Of a DNA stretch of 64,000 bases, positions 185 through 29,625 are shown in pieces (positions within the stretch are counted from its first letter, which is position 1; the number at the start of each line of letters is the position of its first letter). Source of the stretch: Patescibacteria group bacterium (lineage in GTDB: Bacteria > Patescibacteriota > Minisyncoccia > Minisyncoccales > Staskawiczbacteraceae); the NCBI GenBank assembly GCA_038065715.1, contig JBBTQL010000007.1:49643-113642 (forward strand), written 5' to 3'. The notes under the pieces were generated by a model. The model was not told where the DNA came from. It searched no databases and saw only the letters and a list, made by a program, of their open reading frames with translations. The position numbers were made by a program, and so were the translations under genes.

Positions 185-580
185 ATGAACAAAAATTTAA
201 TAATTTTATCGATAGCAGTTGTTGCAGTTTTAATAGGAGGCTATAATTTATTGTCAGGATCTAAATTGGGCGTAAAAAATAATACGTTAACTGCTGCTAT
301 CGCCAACCAAAATCAGCAAAATCAAGTAATGTTCAGTGTAGATGCTAAAAGGTGGCAATTCACGCCAGACGTTATTCGGGTAAAAAAGGGTCAACAGGTC
401 AAAATAATTATTAACAATACCGATACCATCCACGGAATAAATTTACTAGACTTTAATGCCATTGGAGACGATTCTATTGAATTTACGGCTGATAAAACAG
501 GTGAGTTTGTATTCAGATGTAATAATTTTTGCGGTGATGGCCATGGAGCAATGCAAGGTAAAATTATTGTAACCAAATAA
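185..580 (+). CDS. Membrane-anchored cupredoxin-domain protein with CuA-type metal motif
   Basis: N-terminal hydrophobic helix. C-terminal FRCNNFCGDGHGAMQGKI = C-x3-C-x3-H-x2-M, as in the cytochrome oxidase subunit II CuA site. First gene of the copper cluster. Confidence 0.7.
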   Translation: MNKNLIILSIAVVAVLIGGYNLLSGSKLGVKNNTLTAAIANQNQQNQVMFSVDAKRWQFTPDVIRVKKGQQVKIIINNTDTIHGINLLDFNAIGDDSIEFTADKTGEFVFRCNNFCGDGHGAMQGKIIVTK

Positions 581-589
581 TTAAAAATT

Positions 590-1909
590 ATGCAAAAAAC
601 AAAATTTAAAATTCAAGGAATAAAGTGCAGTAATTGCTCTTTGTTAATTGAAGAAAGGTTAAAAAATCTTGATGGGGTTGTTAAGGTTAAAGTTGACCAT
701 GACTCAAGCAAAGGGGTTGTCATTTATGACGAACAAAAAATAACAGAGCGGGATATTTATCAAGCCATTGAAAGCATAAATGATTTTCACTTGGAAAAAA
801 TTGAAGAAATAATTCCGTCGGCAGAAGAAATGTCAGAGGCGGAAAACAAAGAACAAGATTTAGGGATTAAAAAAACAAAATTCCGAATTAAAGGATTAAA
901 GTGCGACAATTGCGTTCTTTTAATAGAGAGCAGGCTAAAAAGCAAAGAAGGAGTTGTTAAAGTTAAAGTTGACCAAACTTCAAATAAAGGTGTGGTAATT
1001 TATGATAAACAGAAAATAGACGAAAGCGATATTTACAAAACAATTGAGGAGATAGGCGGATTTAAAGTTGAAAAAATAGAAGATGCAGTAAAAAATACTG
1101 ATGAAAATACTAATTATGACAACCCTTCCGTATCAATAGAGGTAAGACCTCCAATTGAATCTTCGAATAAGCGAGGATTTGCTATTGTTGCAACTATTGT
1201 ACTTTTAATATTTTTGTTTGCTACGTTCGGGCAAAAAAATAATCAGGGGAGTCAAATCAATGGTTCTGTGAAAAACACTCAAGTACAGGTGCAGCAACAA
1301 GCTGATAACCAGCAAGCTCCGGCAACTAAAACATTAGAAAAAAGCGATAATCCTGTTTTAGAAGCTTATGTGGTTAGTAGATGTCCATTTGGGATCCAAA
1401 TGCAAAGAATAATGGCCGATGTTGTTAAAAATATTCCGTCTTTGGCAAATAATGTAAAGGTGAGATATATGGGGGCTGTTTCTAACGGAACAATTTCTTC
1501 AATGCATGGCAGCGCCGAGGCTCAAGAAAATTTAAGACAGATTTGTTTAAGAGAGGAGCAACCAAATAAATACTGGAGCTATGTTTCCTGCCAAATGAAA
1601 AGCGGTGACACTACTGGATGTGAAACTACTGCGGGAGTTGATGCCTCAAAATTAAACGTTTGTGTTTCAGACAGTAGCAGAGGATTAGTTTATGCCCAAA
1701 AAGATTTTGATTTGAACAGTAAATATCAAGTACAAGGTTCTCCAACATTAATATTGAATGGACAGCAGGTTTCAGAATTTAATTTTGGCGGAAGAACTTC
1801 TGATGCGGTAAAAAGCGTGATATGCAGCGGATTTAATAATCAGCCAGGATCCTGTTCAACAAAACTGACCACAGCTAATGCGGCAACAAGTTTCTCTGCT
1901 ACATATTAG
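590..1909 (+). CDS. Double HMA (heavy-metal-associated) domain protein with TM segment and thioredoxin/DsbA-like C-terminal domain
   Basis: Two internal repeats, KFKIQGIKCSNCSLLIEERLKNLDGVVKVKVD and KFRIKGLKCDNCVLLIESRLKSKEGVVKVKVD, each with CxxC. Central hydrophobic stretch. Cys-containing C-terminal domain. Confidence 0.6.
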   Translation: MQKTKFKIQGIKCSNCSLLIEERLKNLDGVVKVKVDHDSSKGVVIYDEQKITERDIYQAIESINDFHLEKIEEIIPSAEEMSEAENKEQDLGIKKTKFRIKGLKCDNCVLLIESRLKSKEGVVKVKVDQTSNKGVVIYDKQKIDESDIYKTIEEIGGFKVEKIEDAVKNTDENTNYDNPSVSIEVRPPIESSNKRGFAIVATIVLLIFLFATFGQKNNQGSQINGSVKNTQVQVQQQADNQQAPATKTLEKSDNPVLEAYVVSRCPFGIQMQRIMADVVKNIPSLANNVKVRYMGAVSNGTISSMHGSAEAQENLRQICLREEQPNKYWSYVSCQMKSGDTTGCETTAGVDASKLNVCVSDSSRGLVYAQKDFDLNSKYQVQGSPTLILNGQQVSEFNFGGRTSDAVKSVICSGFNNQPGSCSTKLTTANAATSFSATY

Positions 1910-11374: not shown

Positions 11375-11749
11375 ATGCCAAAAAATATTTTAATTGTTGA
11401 AGATGACGAATTTTTAAGGGGGCTGATAAGCAAAAAGCTGTTGGCCGAAGATTTTAAAATTTCTGTGGCAGTTGACGGAGGAGAGGCAGTCAAAAAAATA
11501 AAAGAGGAAAAGCCTGATTTAATATTATTAGACCTTATTCTGCCCGTGATGAATGGTTTTGAGGTTTTATCAAAAATAAAAAAAGACTCCAGCATAAATT
11601 CAATTCCGGTAGTTATTTTATCAAATCTCGGTGAAAAAGAAGATATTGATAAAGGATTAGAATTGGGAGCCATAGATTATTTTGTTAAAGCCCAGCTTAC
11701 TCCAGAAGAAATTGTTGTAAAAGTAAAAAATATTTTTGAAGAAAAATAA
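11375..11749 (+). CDS. Stand-alone response-regulator receiver domain (CheY-like)
   Basis: ILIVEDDEF...DLILLDLILPVMNGFEV...K. 124 aa, no output domain. Confidence 0.85.
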   Translation: MPKNILIVEDDEFLRGLISKKLLAEDFKISVAVDGGEAVKKIKEEKPDLILLDLILPVMNGFEVLSKIKKDSSINSIPVVILSNLGEKEDIDKGLELGAIDYFVKAQLTPEEIVVKVKNIFEEK

Positions 11750-11773
11750 TTTGTAACTAATGCGCAATACAAA

Positions 11774-11800
11774 CAAAAAACGCCCTCTGGCGTTTTTTTT
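11774..11800. terminator. Bidirectional terminator between convergent genes
   Basis: AAAAAACGCC-CTCT-GGCGTTTTTTTT. Confidence 0.6.
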
Positions 11801-11812
11801 GTTTTGCTTGCG

Positions 11813-13260: not shown

Positions 13261-13725
13261 ATGCGAAGAGCTTACAAAAAACACAAAGTAGCTCCAGATT
13301 CGGTTTATAACGACGTGGCAATTGCCCAGTTTATAAACAAGGTAATGAAAGACGGCAAAAAAACAACCGCGCAAAAAATTGTGTACGGAGCTTTTGATAT
13401 TATAAAAGAAAAAACAAAAAAAGAGCCTGCTGAAGTTTTCAGGCAGGCAATTGAAAATGCTTCGCCTATTTTAGAAGTAAAGCCAAAAAGAATTGGAGGA
13501 GCAACTTATCAAGTTCCAATGGAAGTAAGAGGGGAGAGAAGGCTGGCTTTGTCAACAAAATGGATATTAGACGGCGCAAGGGGAAAAAAGGGAAAAGCAA
13601 TGGCAGAAAAGTTGGCGCAAGAATTAATTGACGCATCAAACAACGAAGGCATTGCAATTAAAAAGAAAAACGACACCCACCGCATGGCCGACGCCAACAA
13701 AGCTTTTGCTCATTTCGCTAGGTAA
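13261..13725 (+). CDS. rpsG: Ribosomal protein uS7
   Basis: MRRAYKK...[11 protein letters not shown]...[13 protein letters not shown]...[10 protein letters not shown]. Confidence 0.95.
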
Positions 13726-13778
13726 AAAAAACACGCGAATTCCCGGTATCCGCGCGTATCTGATCATTTTGCCAGGTA

Positions 13779-13794
13779 ACGTGAGTACTCACGT
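13779..13794. repeat. Perfect 16-bp palindrome ACGTGAGTACTCACGT flanked by GGTAACGT direct repeats
   Basis: Palindrome at 13779-13794. GGTAACGT at 13775-13782 and 13799-13806. Confidence 0.5.
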
Positions 13795-13809
13795 GAGGGG
13801 TAACGTAAC

Positions 13810-13953
13810 AAAAAATCCGTCCTGAGCAAAGTCGAAGGACAGATTCTTTGACGCGGAGGCCGGTGGAGTCGAACCACATTCTAAATAAATAGAACCAATT
13901 GTTTATCAGGCAAAGACCAGAACCGTCTGGTTTCAACCTCCCATAACCTCCGC
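13810..13953 (-). ncRNA. tRNA-like sRNA (acceptor-like helix + T-arm + D-arm-like hairpin, no anticodon arm) with terminator
   Basis: Extended -10 TGcTATAAT (13965-13960) puts +1 at G13953. 9-bp helix GCGGAGGTT(13953-13945)/GGCCTCCGC(13861-13853). T-arm GTGG-TTCGACT-CCAC (13877-13863). TGG-GAGGTTGAAA-CCA hairpin. Terminator GTCCT...AGGAC plus T-run (13840-13810). Confidence 0.55.
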
Positions 13954-13969
13954 AACTAAATTATAGCAC

Positions 13970-14047
13970 AAAAAAAACAGCACTTCCAAAATTGAAAATG
14001 CTGTTTCCGGTTCCATTCTTATAGAATGTGACACTGCCTGATAAACT
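13970..14047 (-). ncRNA. Short sRNA whose 5' end is complementary to the tRNA-like sRNA
   Basis: Lies downstream of the promoter at 14054-14081. The 5' GTTTATCAGGCA (14046-14035) is the exact complement of TGCCTGATAAAC (13912-13901). Ends in hairpin ACAGCA...TGCTGT plus T8. Confidence 0.45.
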
Positions 14048-14053
14048 AACTTA

Positions 14054-14081
14054 ATTATAGCAGAACCAAGCACCCTGTCAA
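14054..14081 (-). promoter_or_regulatory. Near-consensus sigma70 promoter (minus strand)
   Basis: TTGACA(14081-14076)-16 nt-TGcTATAAT(14059-14054). Confidence 0.55.
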
Positions 14082-14169
14082 GAGTAAAAAAAGACCCCGA
14101 GAGATGACTCGAGGTTTGCCCCAGCAATCGCCAGGTCTGGCGCCAAAACGCCTTTTCGCGTTTTGGGGG

Positions 14170-14400
14170 TCAGAGTTTTTTGCCACAACATGGGCAAAAC
14201 TCTGCATCTAATTCATACTTTATGAGCTCGTGCTTACAACCAAACGCTAAATCTGCGAGCTCTTGTTCTTGAAGCTCATTAATGGTTGGTGGAAGCGGTA
14301 AGACCTTCCCGCAATAACAACAATAACGAAAATGTATAGCAACCAGACAACCACAATCCGGACAGTTATATAAACCACGGTCATCGGGTATTATACCCAT
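14170..14400 (-). CDS. Small double zinc-ribbon protein
   Basis: CPDCGC...CCYCG and C...CPCCG pairs. AAGGAG SD 8 nt upstream. G+C-richer than the flanks. Three consecutive hairpins in the 3' region (14100-14168). Confidence 0.6.
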   Translation of the reverse strand: MGIIPDDRGLYNCPDCGCLVAIHFRYCCYCGKVLPLPPTINELQEQELADLAFGCKHELIKYELDAEFCPCCGKKL

Positions 14401-14549: not shown

Positions 14550-16625
14550 ATGGCGCGTAAATATCCACTTAATAAATTAAGAAACATAGGAATAATTGCT
14601 CATATTGATGCTGGCAAAACCACTTTTTCAGAGAGGTTGCTTTTTTATACCGGAGTTTCGCATAAAATTGGCGAAGTGCACGAGGGAGACACTGTTATGG
14701 ATTGGATGGTGCAGGAAAGAGAAAGGGGAATTACAATCACTTCAGCTGCCACAACAATGTATTGGAGAGACCACCAGATAAACTTGATTGACACTCCGGG
14801 CCACATCGATTTTACAGCAGAAGTGCAGAGGTCTTTGAGGGTTTTAGATGGAGCAGTTGTTGTTTTTGACGGAGTTGCCGGAGTTGAGCCGCAAAGCGAA
14901 ACAGTTTGGAGGCAAGCAGATAAATACGCGGTCCCAAGAGTTTGCTTTGTCAACAAATTAGACAGAATGGGGGCTTCTTTTGAAAAAAGTTTTCAGTCAA
15001 TTTTAAATAAATTAACCAAAAATGCGGTTGCGGTAAGCTTTCCAATGGGACTTGAAGAAAAATTAGAAGGAGTTGTTGATTTAATAAAAATGAAAGCGTT
15101 ATATTTTGAGGGAGAAAAAGGCATTGAAGTTGTTGAAAAAGATATTCCCGCAGAATGGAAGGCCGAGGCTGAAACATGGCACAAAAAAATGATTGAAAAG
15201 GTTGCTGGAGAGGACGACGCTTTAACGGGAAAGTTTTTAGAAGGAAGGGAAATAACAGCCGAAGAAATTAAAGCAGTTTTAAGAAAATCAGTTTTAAATT
15301 ATAAATTAGTGCCGGTTTTTTGCGGTTCTGCCTTAAAAAATAAAGGAGTGCAAACTATTTTAGACGCTATTGTTGAATTATTGCCTTCTCCTTTAGATGT
15401 GGTTTCCCAAAAAGGAACCGATCCAAAAACGGGGGCTGTAATTGAAAGAAAGGCAGATGACAACGAGCCATTTGCGGCTTTAGTTTTTAAGATTGCCACA
15501 GACCCTTATGTGGGAACTTTAACATATTTTAGGGTTTATTCTGGAGTTTTGAATAAGGGTTCGTATGTTTTAAATGCCAACACAGGAGAGCAAGAAAGAA
15601 TTGCCAGAATTTTAAGAATGCACGCAGACGAAAGACAGGAATTAGATGTTATATATGCTGGCGAAATTGGAGCCACAGTTGGATTAAAAGGAACAAGCAC
15701 AGGGCACACGTTATGCGCCAAAGAATCGCCGGTTATTTTAGAAAAAATTGTTTTTCCTGAGCCTGTTATTGGAATTAGAGTTGAGCCGAAAACAAAAGCT
15801 GACCAGGAAAAACTTATTATGTCTATCAGAAAATTAACCGAAGAAGATCCGACTTTTAGAATTAAAGAAGATATTGAAACAGGAGAAACAATTATTTCGG
15901 GCATGGGAGAATTGCATTTAGATATTATTGCAGACCGTTTAAAAAGAGAGTTTAAAGTTGAGGCAAATTACGGCAGGCCTCAAGTGGCTTATAAAGAAAC
16001 AATAACAGCTGAAGCTGAAGCTGAAGAAAAATATGTAAGGCAGTCTGGAGGAAAAGGCCAATATGGACACGTGCTATTAAGAGTAAAACCAAAAGAAAGG
16101 GGAGCGGGCTTTGAATTTATTGACGAAATAAAAGGAGGCGCAATTCCAAAAGAATTTATTAAGCCAGTTGAAAAAGGAGTTGTGGAGGCAATGGATAAAG
16201 GAATTGTTGCAGGATATCCAATGGTTGATGTTGAGGTTATATTATTTGACGGAAGCTACCATGATGTTGACTCTTCTGAATTTGCTTTTAAAATTGCAGG
16301 CTCAATGGCTTTTCAAAAAGCCGCAAAATCAGCAAAACCAGTTATTTTAGAGCCAGTAATGAAAATAGAAGTTGTCACTCCGGAGGATTTTTTTGGGCAG
16401 GTTATTTCTGATTTAAATTCAAGAAGAGGGCAAATTAAAGAAACATCAGAAAGAGCTGGAATGAAAGTTATAGACGCGATAGTTCCATTATCAGAAACAT
16501 TTGGATATGCAACGTCTTTGAGGTCATTAACAGAAGGCCGCGCCTCATTTACTATGGAATTTAATAGTTACGAACAAGTCCCAAGTAATATTGCTCAAGA
16601 AATTGTTGACGGAAAAAGGCAGTAA
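14550..16625 (+). CDS. fusA: Elongation factor G
   Basis: [18 protein letters not shown] GTPase motifs. 691 aa. Position after rpsG. Confidence 0.97.
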
Positions 16626-16701: not shown

Positions 16702-17007
16702 CTAATGAACTTGGTCTAATATATCTTTTTCATTATCGCTGACAGTGGGCGGTTTATGAGTTCCCACTTCATACCTATGATGTGGCAACGGTGAAACAGC
16801 CTGTTCTTTTGCGCATTCGGGTTGCTCATCGGCAAGCGGTCCTGCCTGTGCAGGCAAGTCGGGAATTTCCCGCTTAAAGATTAGGACAATTTCGGTCCTA
16901 AATCCACTTAATTTCCAACCGCTTTTTTTCTCTTTATCGACTATCTGTTGGCGTATTTCCGCTGATATGTCGCTGGGCAGACGTAATTCTTTGGTTTCTG
17001 TTTTCAT
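16702..17007 (-). CDS. Hypothetical protein (G+C-rich, SD-led, antisense to the operon)
   Basis: 101-aa ORF. AAAGGAAAAA upstream of ATG. Contains a TGCCTG-TG-CAGGCA hairpin (16843-16856) encoding PAQAG. Confidence 0.5.
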   Translation of the reverse strand: MKTETKELRLPSDISAEIRQQIVDKEKKSGWKLSGFRTEIVLIFKREIPDLPAQAGPLADEQPECAKEQAVSPLPHHRYEVGTHKPPTVSDNEKDILDQVH

Positions 17008-17055
17008 GGCGTTTTTCCTTTCGAGGTAAATCAGCGGAGAACGGGTCTCCGCGAG

Positions 17056-17331
17056 TTAGTAGCGCCGATTCTCTTTGTCAAAACGAGCTCGCGTTTTTTT
17101 CAAATCTGCCTCTGTTATACCATCTATACGTCCGTCTTCATCGTATTCTGGCCTTTCCCTTTTCTTTCTGAAAAAGATTGTTTCAACCAAAATGAAAACA
17201 GAGAAACAAATCACCGAAATGCAAAAAAATACAGCTGGTTTTAGATAGTTTGGACAGGGTATGTATATTACCCCTGTAAACGCAAGCACAAACGCAAAAA
17301 CCGAAAGCAGTGCTCTGAGTGAAGTTGACAC
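17056..17331 (-). CDS. Hypothetical two-TM membrane protein (GTG start)
   Basis: 91-aa ORF. AGGAAAGGAA upstream of GTG. Two hydrophobic helices, then a charged tail. Confidence 0.5.
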   Translation of the reverse strand: MSTSLRALLSVFAFVLAFTGVIYIPCPNYLKPAVFFCISVICFSVFILVETIFFRKKRERPEYDEDGRIDGITEADLKKTRARFDKENRRY

Positions 17332-19152: not shown

Positions 19153-19222
19153 TAAACTATCATATATAGACAATAGTTAACTTCCCGCCACAATGCTTAT
19201 AGCTTTGGGCGAGGTAACAACA

Positions 19223-19255
19223 TTGCCAAAAATCTGGCAAGCACGCCAGTTTTTT
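19223..19255 (+). promoter_or_regulatory. Attenuator-like pair of mutually exclusive hairpins between rpsJ and rplC
   Basis: Hairpin A is TTGCCA(19223-28)/TGGCAA(19235-40). Hairpin B is CTGGC(19234-38)/GCCAG(19245-49) plus T6. The two share 19234-19240. Confidence 0.4.
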
Positions 19256-19346
19256 GTTAATGCCAATTTACGAATTATATGCTAATAATGCAAATTCGTA
19301 TTTGGGTCATTGGCGACGTCATTAGCTATATTTGCATTGTATTTAT

Positions 19347-28277: not shown

Positions 28278-29555
28278 ATGTGGTACGACAAAATATTATT
28301 TCTTTTTAAGAATAAGGAGCTTAGGAATAAATTTATATTTATTCTTTTTCTGTTTGTTGTTTTTAGGATAGCAGCCAACATACCAATTCCCGGAATTGGC
28401 ACAGAGGATTTAAGAAAGTTTTTTGCGCAAAACCAAGTTTTCGGGCTTTTAAATATATTTTCTGGCGGCGCTTTGAGTAATTTTTCAATTGTGCTGTTGG
28501 GATTAGGTCCTTATATTACAGCCACAATTATATTACAGCTTTTAACAATGATTTTTCCGGTCCTAGAAAGATTATATAAAGAAGAGGGAGAGGCCGGCAG
28601 GCAAAAATTTAACCAGTATTCAAGATTATTGACAATTCCATTGGCAGCTTTTGAAGGTTATGGAATGTTAACATTATTTCAACGCCAGAATGTTATTGCA
28701 GGTCTTTCTCCATTTATTTTGATAAGTTCAATTGTAACAATTATAGCTGGAGCAATGTTTTTAATGTGGATTGGAGAAATTATTTCAGAGCAGGGATTGG
28801 GCAATGGCATTTCTCTTTTAATTTTTGCCGGCATTGTTGCCCAACTTCCGGTTAATATATTTCAAACATTTGTCAGTTGGAATCCTTCAATGGTCCCTTC
28901 TTACTTTTTATTCTTTGTTTTGTCCGTTGTAATTATTGCCGGCGTGGTTTTAATTACAGAAGCCCGCAGAAATATCCCAGTTTCTTATGCTAAAAGAGTA
29001 AGGGGAACGAAAATGTATGGCGGCTCGTCAACCTATTTGCCGCTAAATGTTAACCCTGCTGGAGTTATTCCTATAATTTTTGCGCTTTCTATTTTGCTTT
29101 TTCCCGGAATGATAGCCAGTTTTTTTGGCGGCGCGCCCGGATTAGCGGGAACTATCGCTACCAACATAGGCGCATTTTTTAATAATGTCTGGGTGCACGG
29201 AGTATTATACTTTTTGTTAGTTATTTTGTTTACTTATTTTTATACAGCAGTTACTTTTGACCCCAAAACAATTGCAGAAAATCTTCAAAAAATGGGAGGT
29301 TTTATTCCCGGAGTAAGGCCCGGCAAATCAACTGCTGATTTTTTAAAACACATATTAAACAGGGTTTTGTTTACAGGAGCCATATTTTTAGGTTTAATAG
29401 CTGTGTTGCCCTCAATTATTGCCGGGGCCACCGGAGTAACTGGATTTACTTTTTTAATTGGCGGCACATCTCTTTTAATCGTGGTTTCAGTAGTATTAGA
29501 CACATTACGCCAGATTAACGCCCAGCTCCAAATGAGGGAGTATGATACTTTCTAG
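28278..29555 (+). CDS. secY: Preprotein translocase subunit SecY
   Basis: 425 aa, 10 TM. ...GLGPYITATIILQLL...GEIISEQGLGNGISLLIFAGI. Confidence 0.96.
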   Translation: MWYDKILFLFKNKELRNKFIFILFLFVVFRIAANIPIPGIGTEDLRKFFAQNQVFGLLNIFSGGALSNFSIVLLGLGPYITATIILQLLTMIFPVLERLYKEEGEAGRQKFNQYSRLLTIPLAAFEGYGMLTLFQRQNVIAGLSPFILISSIVTIIAGAMFLMWIGEIISEQGLGNGISLLIFAGIVAQLPVNIFQTFVSWNPSMVPSYFLFFVLSVVIIAGVVLITEARRNIPVSYAKRVRGTKMYGGSSTYLPLNVNPAGVIPIIFALSILLFPGMIASFFGGAPGLAGTIATNIGAFFNNVWVHGVLYFLLVILFTYFYTAVTFDPKTIAENLQKMGGFIPGVRPGKSTADFLKHILNRVLFTGAIFLGLIAVLPSIIAGATGVTGFTFLIGGTSLLIVVSVVLDTLRQINAQLQMREYDTF

Positions 29556-29625
29556 GTGTTAGATATTAGGTGTTAGATATTGAAATTATTAACTAACACC
29601 CAAAACCCAACACCCAACACCCAAT

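What the first reader, a model, noticed from the sequence alone, without database searches (positions are those of the whole stretch)
13810..14081. tRNA-like sRNA without an anticodon arm, plus a partner sRNA with a 12-nt perfect complement, inserted between rpsG and fusA
Seen (minus strand): the promoter TTGACA-16-TGcTATAAT drives a ~78-nt RNA that begins with GTTTATCAGGCA and ends in a hairpin plus U8. Immediately after, a second TGcTATAAT places +1 on G13953. That base is the first of a 9-bp helix, GCGGAGGUU/GGCCUCCGC. The helix encloses a D-arm-like hairpin (UGG-GAGGUUGAAA-CCA), two further hairpins (ACCAGA/UCUGGU and GUUCUA/UAGAAU) and a textbook T-arm (GUGG-UUCGACU-CCAC), followed by a terminator. 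I scanned every 5-7-5 register and found no anticodon arm. The segment UGCCUGAUAAAC (13912-13901), which contains a CUGAUAA anticodon-loop look-alike, is the exact complement of the 5' end of the first RNA. Inference: this is a tRNA-mimic RNA (the elbow would form from the GG and UUCGA loops). It may be sequestered or activated by a dedicated antisense RNA, or the two may form a two-piece particle. Its location inside the str operon, next to EF-G and EF-Tu genes, is suggestive.
Basis: partly seen in the sequence, partly recalled or inferred. Interest (0 to 1): 0.7.

Follow-up and report, generated by a model that had tools for sequence, protein, structure and literature searches.

The report
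Odd tRNA with its own antisense RNA
A groundwater CPR bacterium carries a small mobile cassette that encodes a selenocysteine-tRNA-shaped, probably mis-decoding tRNA together with a dedicated small RNA complementary to that tRNA's anticodon arm, a pairing I did not find described in the literature I searched.

Summary
Starting at G13941 rather than G13953, RNA2 (13941-13854, minus strand) forms a complete tRNA-Sec-like cloverleaf. It has an 8-bp acceptor stem, a 6-bp D stem with a CGGU tetraloop, a weak anticodon arm with loop CUGAUAA (anticodon GAU), a long variable arm, a 4-bp T stem and G73. This is an 8/4 "allo-tRNA"-type fold.

RNA1 (14046-13970) is a separate small RNA (sRNA). Its 5' end is complementary to the anticodon loop.

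I found four more cassettes with the same layout in related Staskawiczbacteria. One is an orthologue of the window's cassette. Three carry G3:U70/A73 (alanine-identity) tRNAs with Ser or Pro anticodons. Each sRNA matches only its own tRNA. There are 11 compensatory changes between sRNA and tRNA, 9 within the window-type cloverleaf, and covariation in the leader helix.

The cassettes sit at different sites, so the str-operon position is a hot spot for insertions, not a functional link.

Best reading: an antisense-controlled, leader-locked, mis-identity tRNA that behaves like a toxin-antitoxin pair. The anatomy is well supported. The function is inferred.

The parts
14054..14081 (-). Promoter P1 of the sRNA: TTGACA, 16 nt, TGc-TATAAT
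   Evidence: 12 of 12 consensus matches, extended -10. The same TTGACA-16/18-(TGn)TATAAT/TATACT precedes the sRNA in all five cassettes (sequences).
13970..14046 (-). RNA1, the antisense sRNA (about 77 nt). It has a single-stranded 5' seed, hairpin 1 (14029-14015) that mirrors the variable arm, and a terminator hairpin (14008-13973) followed by eight U.
   Evidence: MFE leaves nt 1-12 unpaired. The ends are predicted from the promoter and terminator only.
14035..14046 (-). sRNA seed GUUUAUCAGGCA, a perfect complement of the tRNA anticodon loop and its flanks (13912-13901)
   Evidence: I5; 0 of 2000 shuffles. Five compensatory changes keep this pairing in L164.
14009..14030 (-). sRNA segment 2 (CACAUUCUAUAAGAAUGGAACC), 82% complementary to the variable arm and the 5' strand of the T stem (13896-13875)
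   Evidence: I1; 11 bp with 2 G-U in the window, 12 bp at the same place in L164.
13960..13989 (-). Promoter P2 of the tRNA (TTGGAA, 18 nt, TGc-TATAAT). Its -35 lies inside the sRNA terminator.
   Evidence: In all five cassettes the -10 hexamer is followed by 6 nt and then G, and that G is the first leader nucleotide.
13942..13953 (-). 5' leader. GCGGAGGUU (13953-13945) pairs with GGCCUCCGC (13861-13853), that is with N74, G73 and the 3' acceptor strand. This excludes the real acceptor stem.
   Evidence: the leader helix is in the MFE of all five precursors; 7-9 bp in all five, same register, covaries with the 3' strand and the acceptor 5' strand.
13854..13941 (-). RNA2, an 8/4 tRNA-Sec-like (allo-tRNA-type) tRNA. 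Acceptor 13941-13934 / 13862-13855; D stem 13931-13926 / 13921-13916 with loop CGGU; anticodon arm 13915-13896 (loop CUGAUAA 13909-13903, anticodon GAU 13907-13905); variable arm 13895-13878; T arm 13877-13863; discriminator G13854. CCA is not encoded.
   Evidence: RF01852, 41.3 bits; 98% of cells paired, 9 compensatory pairs against L164; own model: window 106.9 bits, L164 98.4 bits. ARAGORN does not call it.
13810..13849 (-). Terminator of RNA2: A-tract, GUCC...GGAC hairpin, U-tract. It looks bidirectional.

Best explanation
The locus is a compact two-RNA cassette on the strand opposite to the str operon.

RNA2 is a non-canonical tRNA with the 8/4 tRNA-Sec-like ('allo-tRNA') fold. It has serine-type identity features (long variable arm, G73) but an isoleucine-type anticodon loop (CUGAUAA, anticodon GAU). 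It is transcribed with a short leader that starts at +1. The leader copies the acceptor 5' strand and pairs with N74, N73 and the 3' acceptor strand. The primary transcript is therefore predicted to sit in a locked form that hides the acceptor end.

RNA1 is made from a consensus promoter just upstream. It is a trans-acting antisense RNA. Its 5' end pairs with the anticodon loop and its flanks, and a second segment pairs with the variable arm and T stem.

I infer that RNA1 and the leader lock together keep a mis-decoding tRNA inactive. That tRNA would insert Ser at Ile codons here, and Ala at Ser or Pro codons in the sister cassettes. The cassette would then behave like an RNA-only toxin-antitoxin or tightly gated mistranslation module that moves between intergenic hot spots.

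Shown: the anatomy, conservation, covariation and cognate specificity. Inferred: transcription start and end points, RNase P processing, aminoacylation, toxicity and the direction of regulation.
For: Fold:
- RF01852 aligns end to end.
- 9 compensatory pairs against L164, 98% of cells paired versus at most 48% for slid controls.
- The D loop CGGU and T loop UUCGACU equal those of E. coli selC (from my own knowledge of that sequence).

Family:
- There are five distinct cassettes with identical layout: window, L164, L005, L166, L002.
- The promoter modules of the two types are homologous.

sRNA-tRNA pairing:
- The longest Watson-Crick run in three cassettes tested is 11-12 nt for cognate pairs versus 5-6 nt for non-cognate pairs.
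- For all five cassettes, cofold ddG is -8.6 to -11.0 kcal/mol for cognate pairs versus 0 to -2.7 for non-cognate pairs.
- 11 compensatory intermolecular changes.
- None of 43 ordinary tRNAs in the same loci has an upstream complement of 9 nt or more to its anticodon arm.

Leader:
- 7-9 bp in all five cassettes, always from N74.
- It is in the MFE of every precursor, while each mature sequence folds as a cloverleaf.

Identity versus anticodon:
- G3:U70 and A73 are invariant in the three class-I members, which carry UGA, CGA or UGG anticodons.
- AlaRS and SerRS do not read the anticodon, and G3:U70 suffices for AlaRS (PMC11415595).
- Allo-tRNAs insert Ser or Ala at non-cognate codons in E. coli, some are toxic, and they lie near toxin-antitoxin systems (PMC5389517).

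Mobility:
- L005 and L166 cassettes are 76% identical but lie at different sites.
- The same gaps carry MNT/HEPN, GIY-YIG and PDDEXK genes elsewhere.
Against: - There are no expression, processing or charging data.
- The anticodon stem is weak in all five members: 3-5 pairs, and the pair closing the loop is mismatched, so the loop is effectively 9 nt. Decoding may be poor or absent.
- Allo-tRNAs are described with longer, not shorter, anticodon stems.
- Position 37 is C or U in the class-I members, which is unusual for a decoding tRNA.
- Only five cassettes were found, all in one CPR lineage, and only two are of the window's type.
- The leader helix could block maturation altogether, in which case the RNA is never a tRNA.
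- The toxin-antitoxin logic is an analogy. No stability difference between the two RNAs is known.
Confidence: 0.5

Rival explanations
1. The pair is a non-translational regulatory duo. RNA2 is a tRNA-shaped ncRNA that stays in the leader-closed form and is never charged or used on the ribosome. Either RNA acts as sponge, decoy or scaffold for the other, or for a tRNA-binding protein such as a modification enzyme, a nuclease or a tRNA-dependent transferase.
For: - The leader helix is the predicted MFE form of all five precursors.
- The anticodon stems are weak and the loops are effectively 9 nt.
- Most allo-tRNA(UAU) species tested by Mukai et al. were inactive in translation.
Against: - Synthetase identity elements are conserved where nothing else is: G3:U70 and A73 in 3 of 3 class-I members, and the long variable arm plus G73 in both window-type members.
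- The true acceptor stem covaries, so the cloverleaf form is under selection.
- No partner protein gene travels with the cassette.
Confidence: 0.25
2. RNA1 is a T-box-like cis leader. The mature tRNA binds the nascent RNA1 through its anticodon and changes termination at the RNA1 terminator. This would autoregulate read-through from the strong P1 into the tRNA gene.
For: - The order is promoter, anticodon-complementary segment, terminator, tRNA gene.
- The two contact segments lie in 'parallel' order along both RNAs, as in T-box-tRNA complexes.
Against: - No Rfam T-box match even at E = 10.
- No conserved element pairs with the tRNA 3' end, and I saw no alternative antiterminator.
- The tRNA has its own conserved promoter, with +1 exactly at the leader.
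- The complementarity is 11-13 nt plus a second segment, far more than a specifier codon.
Confidence: 0.1
3. The locus is a decaying tRNA pseudogene next to a partial inverted duplication of itself, with no function. The complementarity is only a relic of that duplication.
For: - The sRNA reads as a permuted antisense copy of parts of the tRNA. In L005, sRNA nt 1-32 resemble the reverse complement of tRNA nt 1-36.
- ARAGORN and the Rfam gathering threshold miss RNA2.
Against: - There are 20 compensatory changes within and between the RNAs in the window-type and L005-type comparisons.
- Consensus promoters and terminators are intact in all five cassettes.
- The same design recurs with three unrelated tRNA payloads.
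Confidence: 0.05
4. RNA2 is a genuine selenocysteine tRNA, a tmRNA, or an intron-containing tRNA.
For: The best Rfam match is tRNA-Sec.
Against: - The score is below the gathering threshold.
- The anticodon is GAU, not UCA, and is conserved in L164.
- The acceptor branch is 8/4, not 8/5.
- ARAGORN finds no tmRNA or tRNA, and Rfam finds no tmRNA.
Confidence: 0.02

Closest known systems
allo-tRNAs: 8/4 or 9/3 tRNA-Sec-like tRNAs (Mukai et al. 2016, PMC5389517)
   Same: - 12-bp acceptor branch split 8/4.
- Long D stem with a tetraloop.
- Long variable arm and G73.
- An anticodon that does not match the serine identity. Ile-box anticodons are common among allo-tRNAs.
- Patchy occurrence near selfish or toxin-antitoxin genes.
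   Different: - Found here in Patescibacteria (CPR). The paper lists Clostridia, Proteobacteria and Acidobacteria.
- The anticodon stem is shortened and mismatched rather than lengthened.
- It comes with a dedicated antisense sRNA and a conserved leader lock. A term search of the paper found no mention of antisense or complementary RNAs.
Type I toxin-antitoxin systems such as hok/sok
   Same: - A small antisense RNA from a strong promoter lies next to its target gene.
- The target RNA has 5'-3' fold-back pairing that keeps the primary transcript inert.
- Small size, mobility and location in hot spots.
   Different: The target is a tRNA, not an mRNA for a membrane peptide. No ORF is involved. 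The sRNA is not transcribed from the opposite strand of its target. It is a neighbouring, same-strand, permuted antisense copy.
T-box riboswitch
   Same: An RNA recognises a specific tRNA by pairing with its anticodon, with a second contact further 3' on both RNAs.
   Different: No T-box sequence or structure and no contact with the acceptor end. No downstream aaRS or transporter gene. The pairing is much longer and invades the stem.
Encoded mistranslating tRNAs, such as the Streptomyces tRNA-ProA family (PMC10404621) and Ala/Ser anticodon variants (PMC11415595)
   Same: The tRNA identity elements and the anticodon disagree, using synthetases that ignore the anticodon.
   Different: As summarised in the papers I consulted, control there involves a dedicated synthetase or expression level. 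Here an RNA partner is complementary to the anticodon arm.

Membership tests
allo-tRNA (8/4 type) | 12-bp acceptor branch made of an 8-bp acceptor stem and a 4-bp T stem | tested here: met
   Pairs 13941-13934/13862-13855 and 13877-13874/13866-13863. Two acceptor pairs covary in L164. The would-be fifth T pair is U.C in the window and U.U in L164.
allo-tRNA (8/4 type) | tRNA-Sec-like D arm: long stem plus tetraloop | tested here: met
   6-bp stem with loop CGGU. Five of 6 pairs changed on both sides between the window and L164.
allo-tRNA (8/4 type) | Long variable arm and discriminator G73 or U73 (serine identity) | tested here: met
   6-bp variable stem in the window, 4 bp in L164. G73 in both. 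Charging by SerRS was not tested.
allo-tRNA (8/4 type) | Anticodon stem longer than in canonical tRNAs | tested here: not met
   Only three contiguous pairs plus an outer C-G. The pairs flanking the core are mismatched in both members.
allo-tRNA (8/4 type) | Active in translation (processed, charged, delivered by EF-Tu) | not testable with these tools
   Needs RNase P, CCA-adding, SerRS and reporter assays.
tRNA-Sec (Rfam RF01852) | Score at or above the gathering threshold | tested here: not met
   41.3 bits against a threshold of 47.
tRNA-Sec (Rfam RF01852) | UCA anticodon that reads UGA | tested here: not met
   The loop is CUGAUAA (anticodon GAU), identical in L164.
tRNA-Sec (Rfam RF01852) | 13-bp acceptor branch (8/5 in bacteria) | tested here: not met
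   8/4 = 12 bp.
tmRNA, including two-piece forms | tRNA-Ala-like domain plus a tag reading frame, detectable by ARAGORN or Rfam | tested here: not met
   ARAGORN finds no genes in the 64 kb. No tmRNA family appears even at E = 10 in 13700-14200. The acceptor has no G3:U70.
Canonical tRNA | 7/5 cloverleaf recognised by ARAGORN or RF00005 | tested here: not met
T-box riboswitch | Stem I with specifier loop, and a T-box antiterminator bulge that pairs with the NCCA end, upstream of an amino-acid-related gene | tested here: not met
   No RF00230 match at E up to 10. No complement to the tRNA 3' end is shared among the cassettes. The downstream gene is the tRNA itself.
Type I toxin-antitoxin | The toxin is a small, usually hydrophobic, peptide encoded by the target RNA | tested here: not met
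   RNA2 contains no conserved ORF or Shine-Dalgarno sequence. The ORFs that overlap it run through terminators and are not shared with L164.
Type I toxin-antitoxin | The antitoxin is a small antisense RNA that base-pairs with the toxin RNA | tested here: met
   By sequence only. Binding and its effect were not tested.
YrlA / bacterial Y RNA | Long Ro-binding helix formed by the two ends, plus a tRNA-like module, usually next to rsr | tested here: not met
   No Rfam Y RNA match. The terminal helix is only 7-9 bp. None of the neighbouring genes I examined resembles rsr.

The most novel reading that the evidence does not exclude
This is an RNA-only addiction or defence module. The 'toxin' is a deliberately mis-identified tRNA: Ser or Ala identity with an Ile, Ser or Pro anticodon. 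The 'antitoxin' is an sRNA that sequesters its anticodon arm. A 5' leader acts as a zymogen-like lock on the acceptor end. The chassis is modular: the promoters, leader design and terminators are shared, and the tRNA and the matching sRNA seed are swapped together.
Probability: 0.3. Interest if true: 0.9.

Novelty: new variant of a known kind. Interest (0 to 1): 0.8.

Why it matters
If the inference holds, a cell or a selfish element can keep a proteome-wide mistranslating tRNA on a leash made only of RNA. That would add tRNAs to the list of toxin-antitoxin effectors. It would give allo-tRNAs, whose biology is unresolved, a concrete regulatory context. It would also supply natural, programmable parts: an anti-anticodon sRNA and a leader lock that could switch engineered suppressor tRNAs on and off.

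Even without the functional claim, three things stand. The finding extends 8/4 tRNA-Sec-like tRNAs to the CPR. It shows that standard tRNA finders miss them. It also documents a conserved conformational switch at the acceptor end of a tRNA precursor.

Tried and rejected
- ARAGORN and Rfam at gathering thresholds found nothing in the window.
- BLAST of the whole rpsG-fusA spacer against 80 related genome loci gave no homologue.
- A metagenome scan with an EF-G fragment returned mostly distant relatives and no new cassette.
- A loosened structural scan for leader, acceptor and T arm was too noisy to use.
- Eight further S7-based look-ups gave no cassette: P0003, P0006, P0097, P0115, P0039, P0008, P0011 and P0058. 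The P0026 look-up also gave none.
- A covariance model of the window type found only the window and L164 among 94 of the fetched sources (0.98 Mb).
- RNAduplex-type energies were uninformative, so I replaced them with run-length statistics and cofold ddG.
- I considered that a GUGC T loop marks a cell-wall-type non-ribosomal tRNA. I dropped this because L166 has a canonical UUCGAUU loop.
- I considered that the 76-aa zinc-ribbon ORF belongs to the cassette. I dropped this because L002, L005 and L166 lack it and similar ORFs occur alone in other gaps.
- I considered that the conserved CAAAGAATCT trailer is a family signature. It is just the A-tract of bidirectional terminators.
- Literature searches found no description of an sRNA that targets a tRNA anticodon arm in bacteria.

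Full report
**Where the locus is**

The window comes from a Candidatus Staskawiczbacteria-like CPR bacterium from Hainich groundwater. Its EF-G is 78-91% identical to that of Staskawiczbacteria MAGs. An identical contig occurs in ENA sample ERZ1292635. rpsL, rpsG (ends at 13725) and fusA (14550-16625) lie on the + strand. The 825-nt spacer between rpsG and fusA carries, on the minus strand, a 76-aa weak double-zinc-ribbon ORF (14400-14170) and then the two RNAs of the finding.

**Checking the observation**

- Promoter P1, TTGACA-16-TGcTATAAT, lies at 14081-14054 and matches 12 of 12 consensus positions.
- RNA1 runs from G14046 to a 16-pair terminator hairpin followed by eight T, ending near 13970.
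- A second TGcTATAAT lies at 13968-13960, with G13953 seven nt downstream.
- The 9-bp helix GCGGAGGUU/GGCCUCCGC, the two hairpins, the T arm and the terminator are all there.
- The 12-nt perfect complement pairs 14046-14035 with 13912-13901 (I5). No run that long occurred in 2000 shuffles.
- A second, 22-nt, 82% complementary stretch links RNA1 hairpin 1 to the variable arm (I1).

**What RNA2 is**

ARAGORN finds no tRNA or tmRNA in the 64 kb, and Rfam finds nothing at gathering thresholds. With relaxed thresholds the only credible match in the window is tRNA-Sec (RF01852). It scores 41.3 bits against a gathering score of 47, with E = 6e-7 locally and 8e-5 for the whole window. It aligns end to end on 13942-13854.

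It uses the near-repeat 11 nt downstream. The 5' strand GGAGGUUG (13941-13934) pairs with CGGCCUCC (13862-13855). The resulting cloverleaf has:
- an 8-bp acceptor stem;
- a two-nucleotide AA linker;
- a 6-bp D stem, ACCAGA/UCUGGU, with tetraloop CGGU;
- an anticodon arm with loop CUGAUAA;
- a 6-bp variable arm;
- a 4-bp T stem with loop UUCGACU;
- discriminator G73.

**Relatives**

The rpsG-fusA spacer ranges from 10 to 1706 nt among relatives. It usually holds unrelated minus-strand genes.

I found four further cassettes with the same layout: consensus promoter, sRNA of about 80 nt with its own terminator, extended -10 promoter, short leader, odd tRNA, terminator.
- L164 has an S7 protein 98% identical to the window's. 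It carries the orthologue of the window cassette at the same site.
- L002 and L166 carry cassettes in the same gap.
- L005 carries one after rpsJ.

L005 and L166 are 76% identical over 226 nt although they lie at different sites. The promoter modules of the window-type and L005-type cassettes are also similar.

The tRNAs of L005, L166 and L002 are class-I tRNAs. G3:U70 and A73 are invariant in all three, while the anticodons are UGA, CGA and UGG.

No further cassette turned up in about 200 loci (about 2 Mb) using BLAST and ARAGORN-based or structural scans, or in a covariance-model search of 94 of those sources.

**Covariation within RNA2**

Between the window and L164, the 8/4 cloverleaf is 98% paired. 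Nine pairs changed on both sides: five in the D stem, two in the acceptor stem and two in the anticodon stem. With the partners slid by 1-3 columns, at most 48% of cells pair and at most two pairs covary.

The class-I trio is 96% paired, with six compensatory pairs.

In all five tRNAs the pair that would close a 7-nt anticodon loop is a mismatch. The loops are therefore effectively 9 nt and the stems have only 3-5 pairs.

**The leader**

In all five cassettes the -10 hexamer of P2 is followed by six nt and then G. That G begins a 7-9-bp helix with N74, N73 and the 3' acceptor strand.

From its third nucleotide on, the leader is a copy of the acceptor 5' strand. In the class-I members the leader replaces G3.U70 with A:U.

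Where the 3' strand differs between cassettes, the acceptor 5' strand and the leader both differ in step. This holds for window versus L164 and for L002 versus L005.

Each mature sequence folds as a cloverleaf. Every precursor has the leader helix in its MFE structure. Both conformers seem to be under selection.

**RNA1 and RNA2 pair specifically**

- In three cassettes tested, the longest Watson-Crick run between an sRNA and its own tRNA is 11-12 nt. For non-cognate pairs it is 5-6 nt.
- For all five cassettes, cofold ddG is -8.6 to -11.0 kcal/mol for cognate pairs and 0 to -2.7 for non-cognate pairs.
- Of 45 ARAGORN tRNAs in the fetched loci, only the two odd ones have an upstream complement of 9 nt or more to the anticodon arm.
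- The complement begins at or next to the predicted +1 of the sRNA in every cassette.

Between orthologues the pairing is kept by compensatory changes. In the window, GUUUAUCAGGCA pairs with UGCCUGAUAAAC. In L164, GAGUUAUCAGUUC pairs with GAACUGAUAACUC. That makes five double changes around an invariant loop. L005 versus L166 adds six more.

In the class-I cassettes the sRNA 5' half is antisense to most of the tRNA 5' half, and a second segment covers the anticodon and the 3' strand of the stem. In the window type the second segment covers the 3' strand of the variable arm and the 5' strand of the T stem. In all five, the two segments occur in the same 5'-to-3' order on both RNAs. They are therefore a permuted antisense copy, not a continuous one.

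**Interpretation**

AlaRS and SerRS do not read the anticodon, and G3:U70 suffices for AlaRS (PMC11415595). The two identity types seen in this family are exactly those two, and each is joined to a foreign anticodon. Allo-tRNAs of this fold insert Ser or Ala at non-cognate codons in E. coli. Some are toxic, and they are often found next to toxin-antitoxin genes (PMC5389517).

The gaps that hold the cassettes hold MNT/HEPN, GIY-YIG or PDDEXK genes in other genomes.

The reading I favour is that RNA2 is a potentially mis-decoding tRNA kept inactive in two ways. The leader hides N73, N74 and the acceptor strand. An abundant antisense RNA sequesters the anticodon arm and may direct the duplex to degradation. 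The whole cassette would then be a mobile, toxin-antitoxin-like or gated-mistranslation module.

Everything beyond the anatomy and the pairing is inference. The weak anticodon stems and the unusual position 37 in the class-I members leave room for a non-translational role.

**Comparison with known systems**

- RNA2 meets four of the structural criteria of 8/4 allo-tRNAs and fails one, the long anticodon stem.
- It fails the tRNA-Sec criteria: score, UCA anticodon and 8/5 branch.
- It is not a tmRNA, T-box or Y RNA.
- The cassette works most like a type I toxin-antitoxin pair, including a 5'-3' fold-back in the target RNA. It is not a member of that class, because there is no toxin ORF.
- I found no report of an sRNA dedicated to a tRNA anticodon arm.

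**Verdict**

The structural interpretation is wrong in an instructive way. The antisense-partner idea is strongly reinforced, and the str-operon link is incidental. I rate the finding as a new variant of known kinds (allo-tRNA plus antisense control), with a real chance that it is a new type of RNA-only module.

Noticed in passing
window 11750-11812 (between the response-regulator gene 11375-11749 and rpmB 12019-11813): Most related loci with this neighbourhood carry a minus-strand tRNA-Pro(GGG) here (for example L004, L190 and L194). The window and L164, the two genomes with the window-type cassette, have no tRNA at this site, and ARAGORN finds no tRNA anywhere in the 64 kb.
   Followed up: partly
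window 13726-13809, minus strand: Downstream of the RNA2 terminator lie a near-perfect palindrome (GTAACGTGAGTACTCACGTTAC, 13776-13809) and a second minus-strand terminator (13757-13731). This could be a third short transcript or a protein-binding site. It is not present in L164.
   Followed up: no
window 16702-17331; also L167, L168, L177: The intergenic gaps of the str/S10 operon are insertion hot spots in this lineage. The window has two minus-strand ORFs (101 and 91 aa) between fusA and tuf. Relatives carry MNT/HEPN pairs, GIY-YIG or PDDEXK genes and small zinc-ribbon ORFs at the same junctions.
   Followed up: partly
window 19153-19331; L203 12571-12720: The rpsJ-rplC spacer holds a conserved motif (ATAGTTAAC ... 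GGTAACAACATTGCC, then a terminator-like hairpin) that is shared with a relative. It may be a ribosomal-protein leader or small RNA. The L005 cassette is inserted at this junction.
   Followed up: no
L200 about 420-520 (minus) and L202 about 500-590 (plus), IMG/VR phage contigs: Inside phage tRNA arrays lies an uncalled tRNA-like gene. It has an 8-bp acceptor (TCGGCCTG/CAGGCCGA), a 4-bp T stem (GTGG-TTCGACT-CCAC), loop CTGATAA, a long variable region and no obvious D arm. ARAGORN skips it. The search pattern itself required the loop and the T arm, so only the remaining features are independent.
   Followed up: partly
window 29541-29625, minus strand: A sub-threshold Rfam match to a microRNA precursor model (30.6 bits, E = 0.06). 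It is certainly not a miRNA, but it may mark a stable hairpin.
   Followed up: no
L005 10026-10101 and L002 3128-3200: Two of the class-I cassette tRNAs have T loops UGCAACU and UGCGAAU (G at position 55 in place of U). The L166 orthologue has a canonical UUCGAUU.
   Followed up: partly
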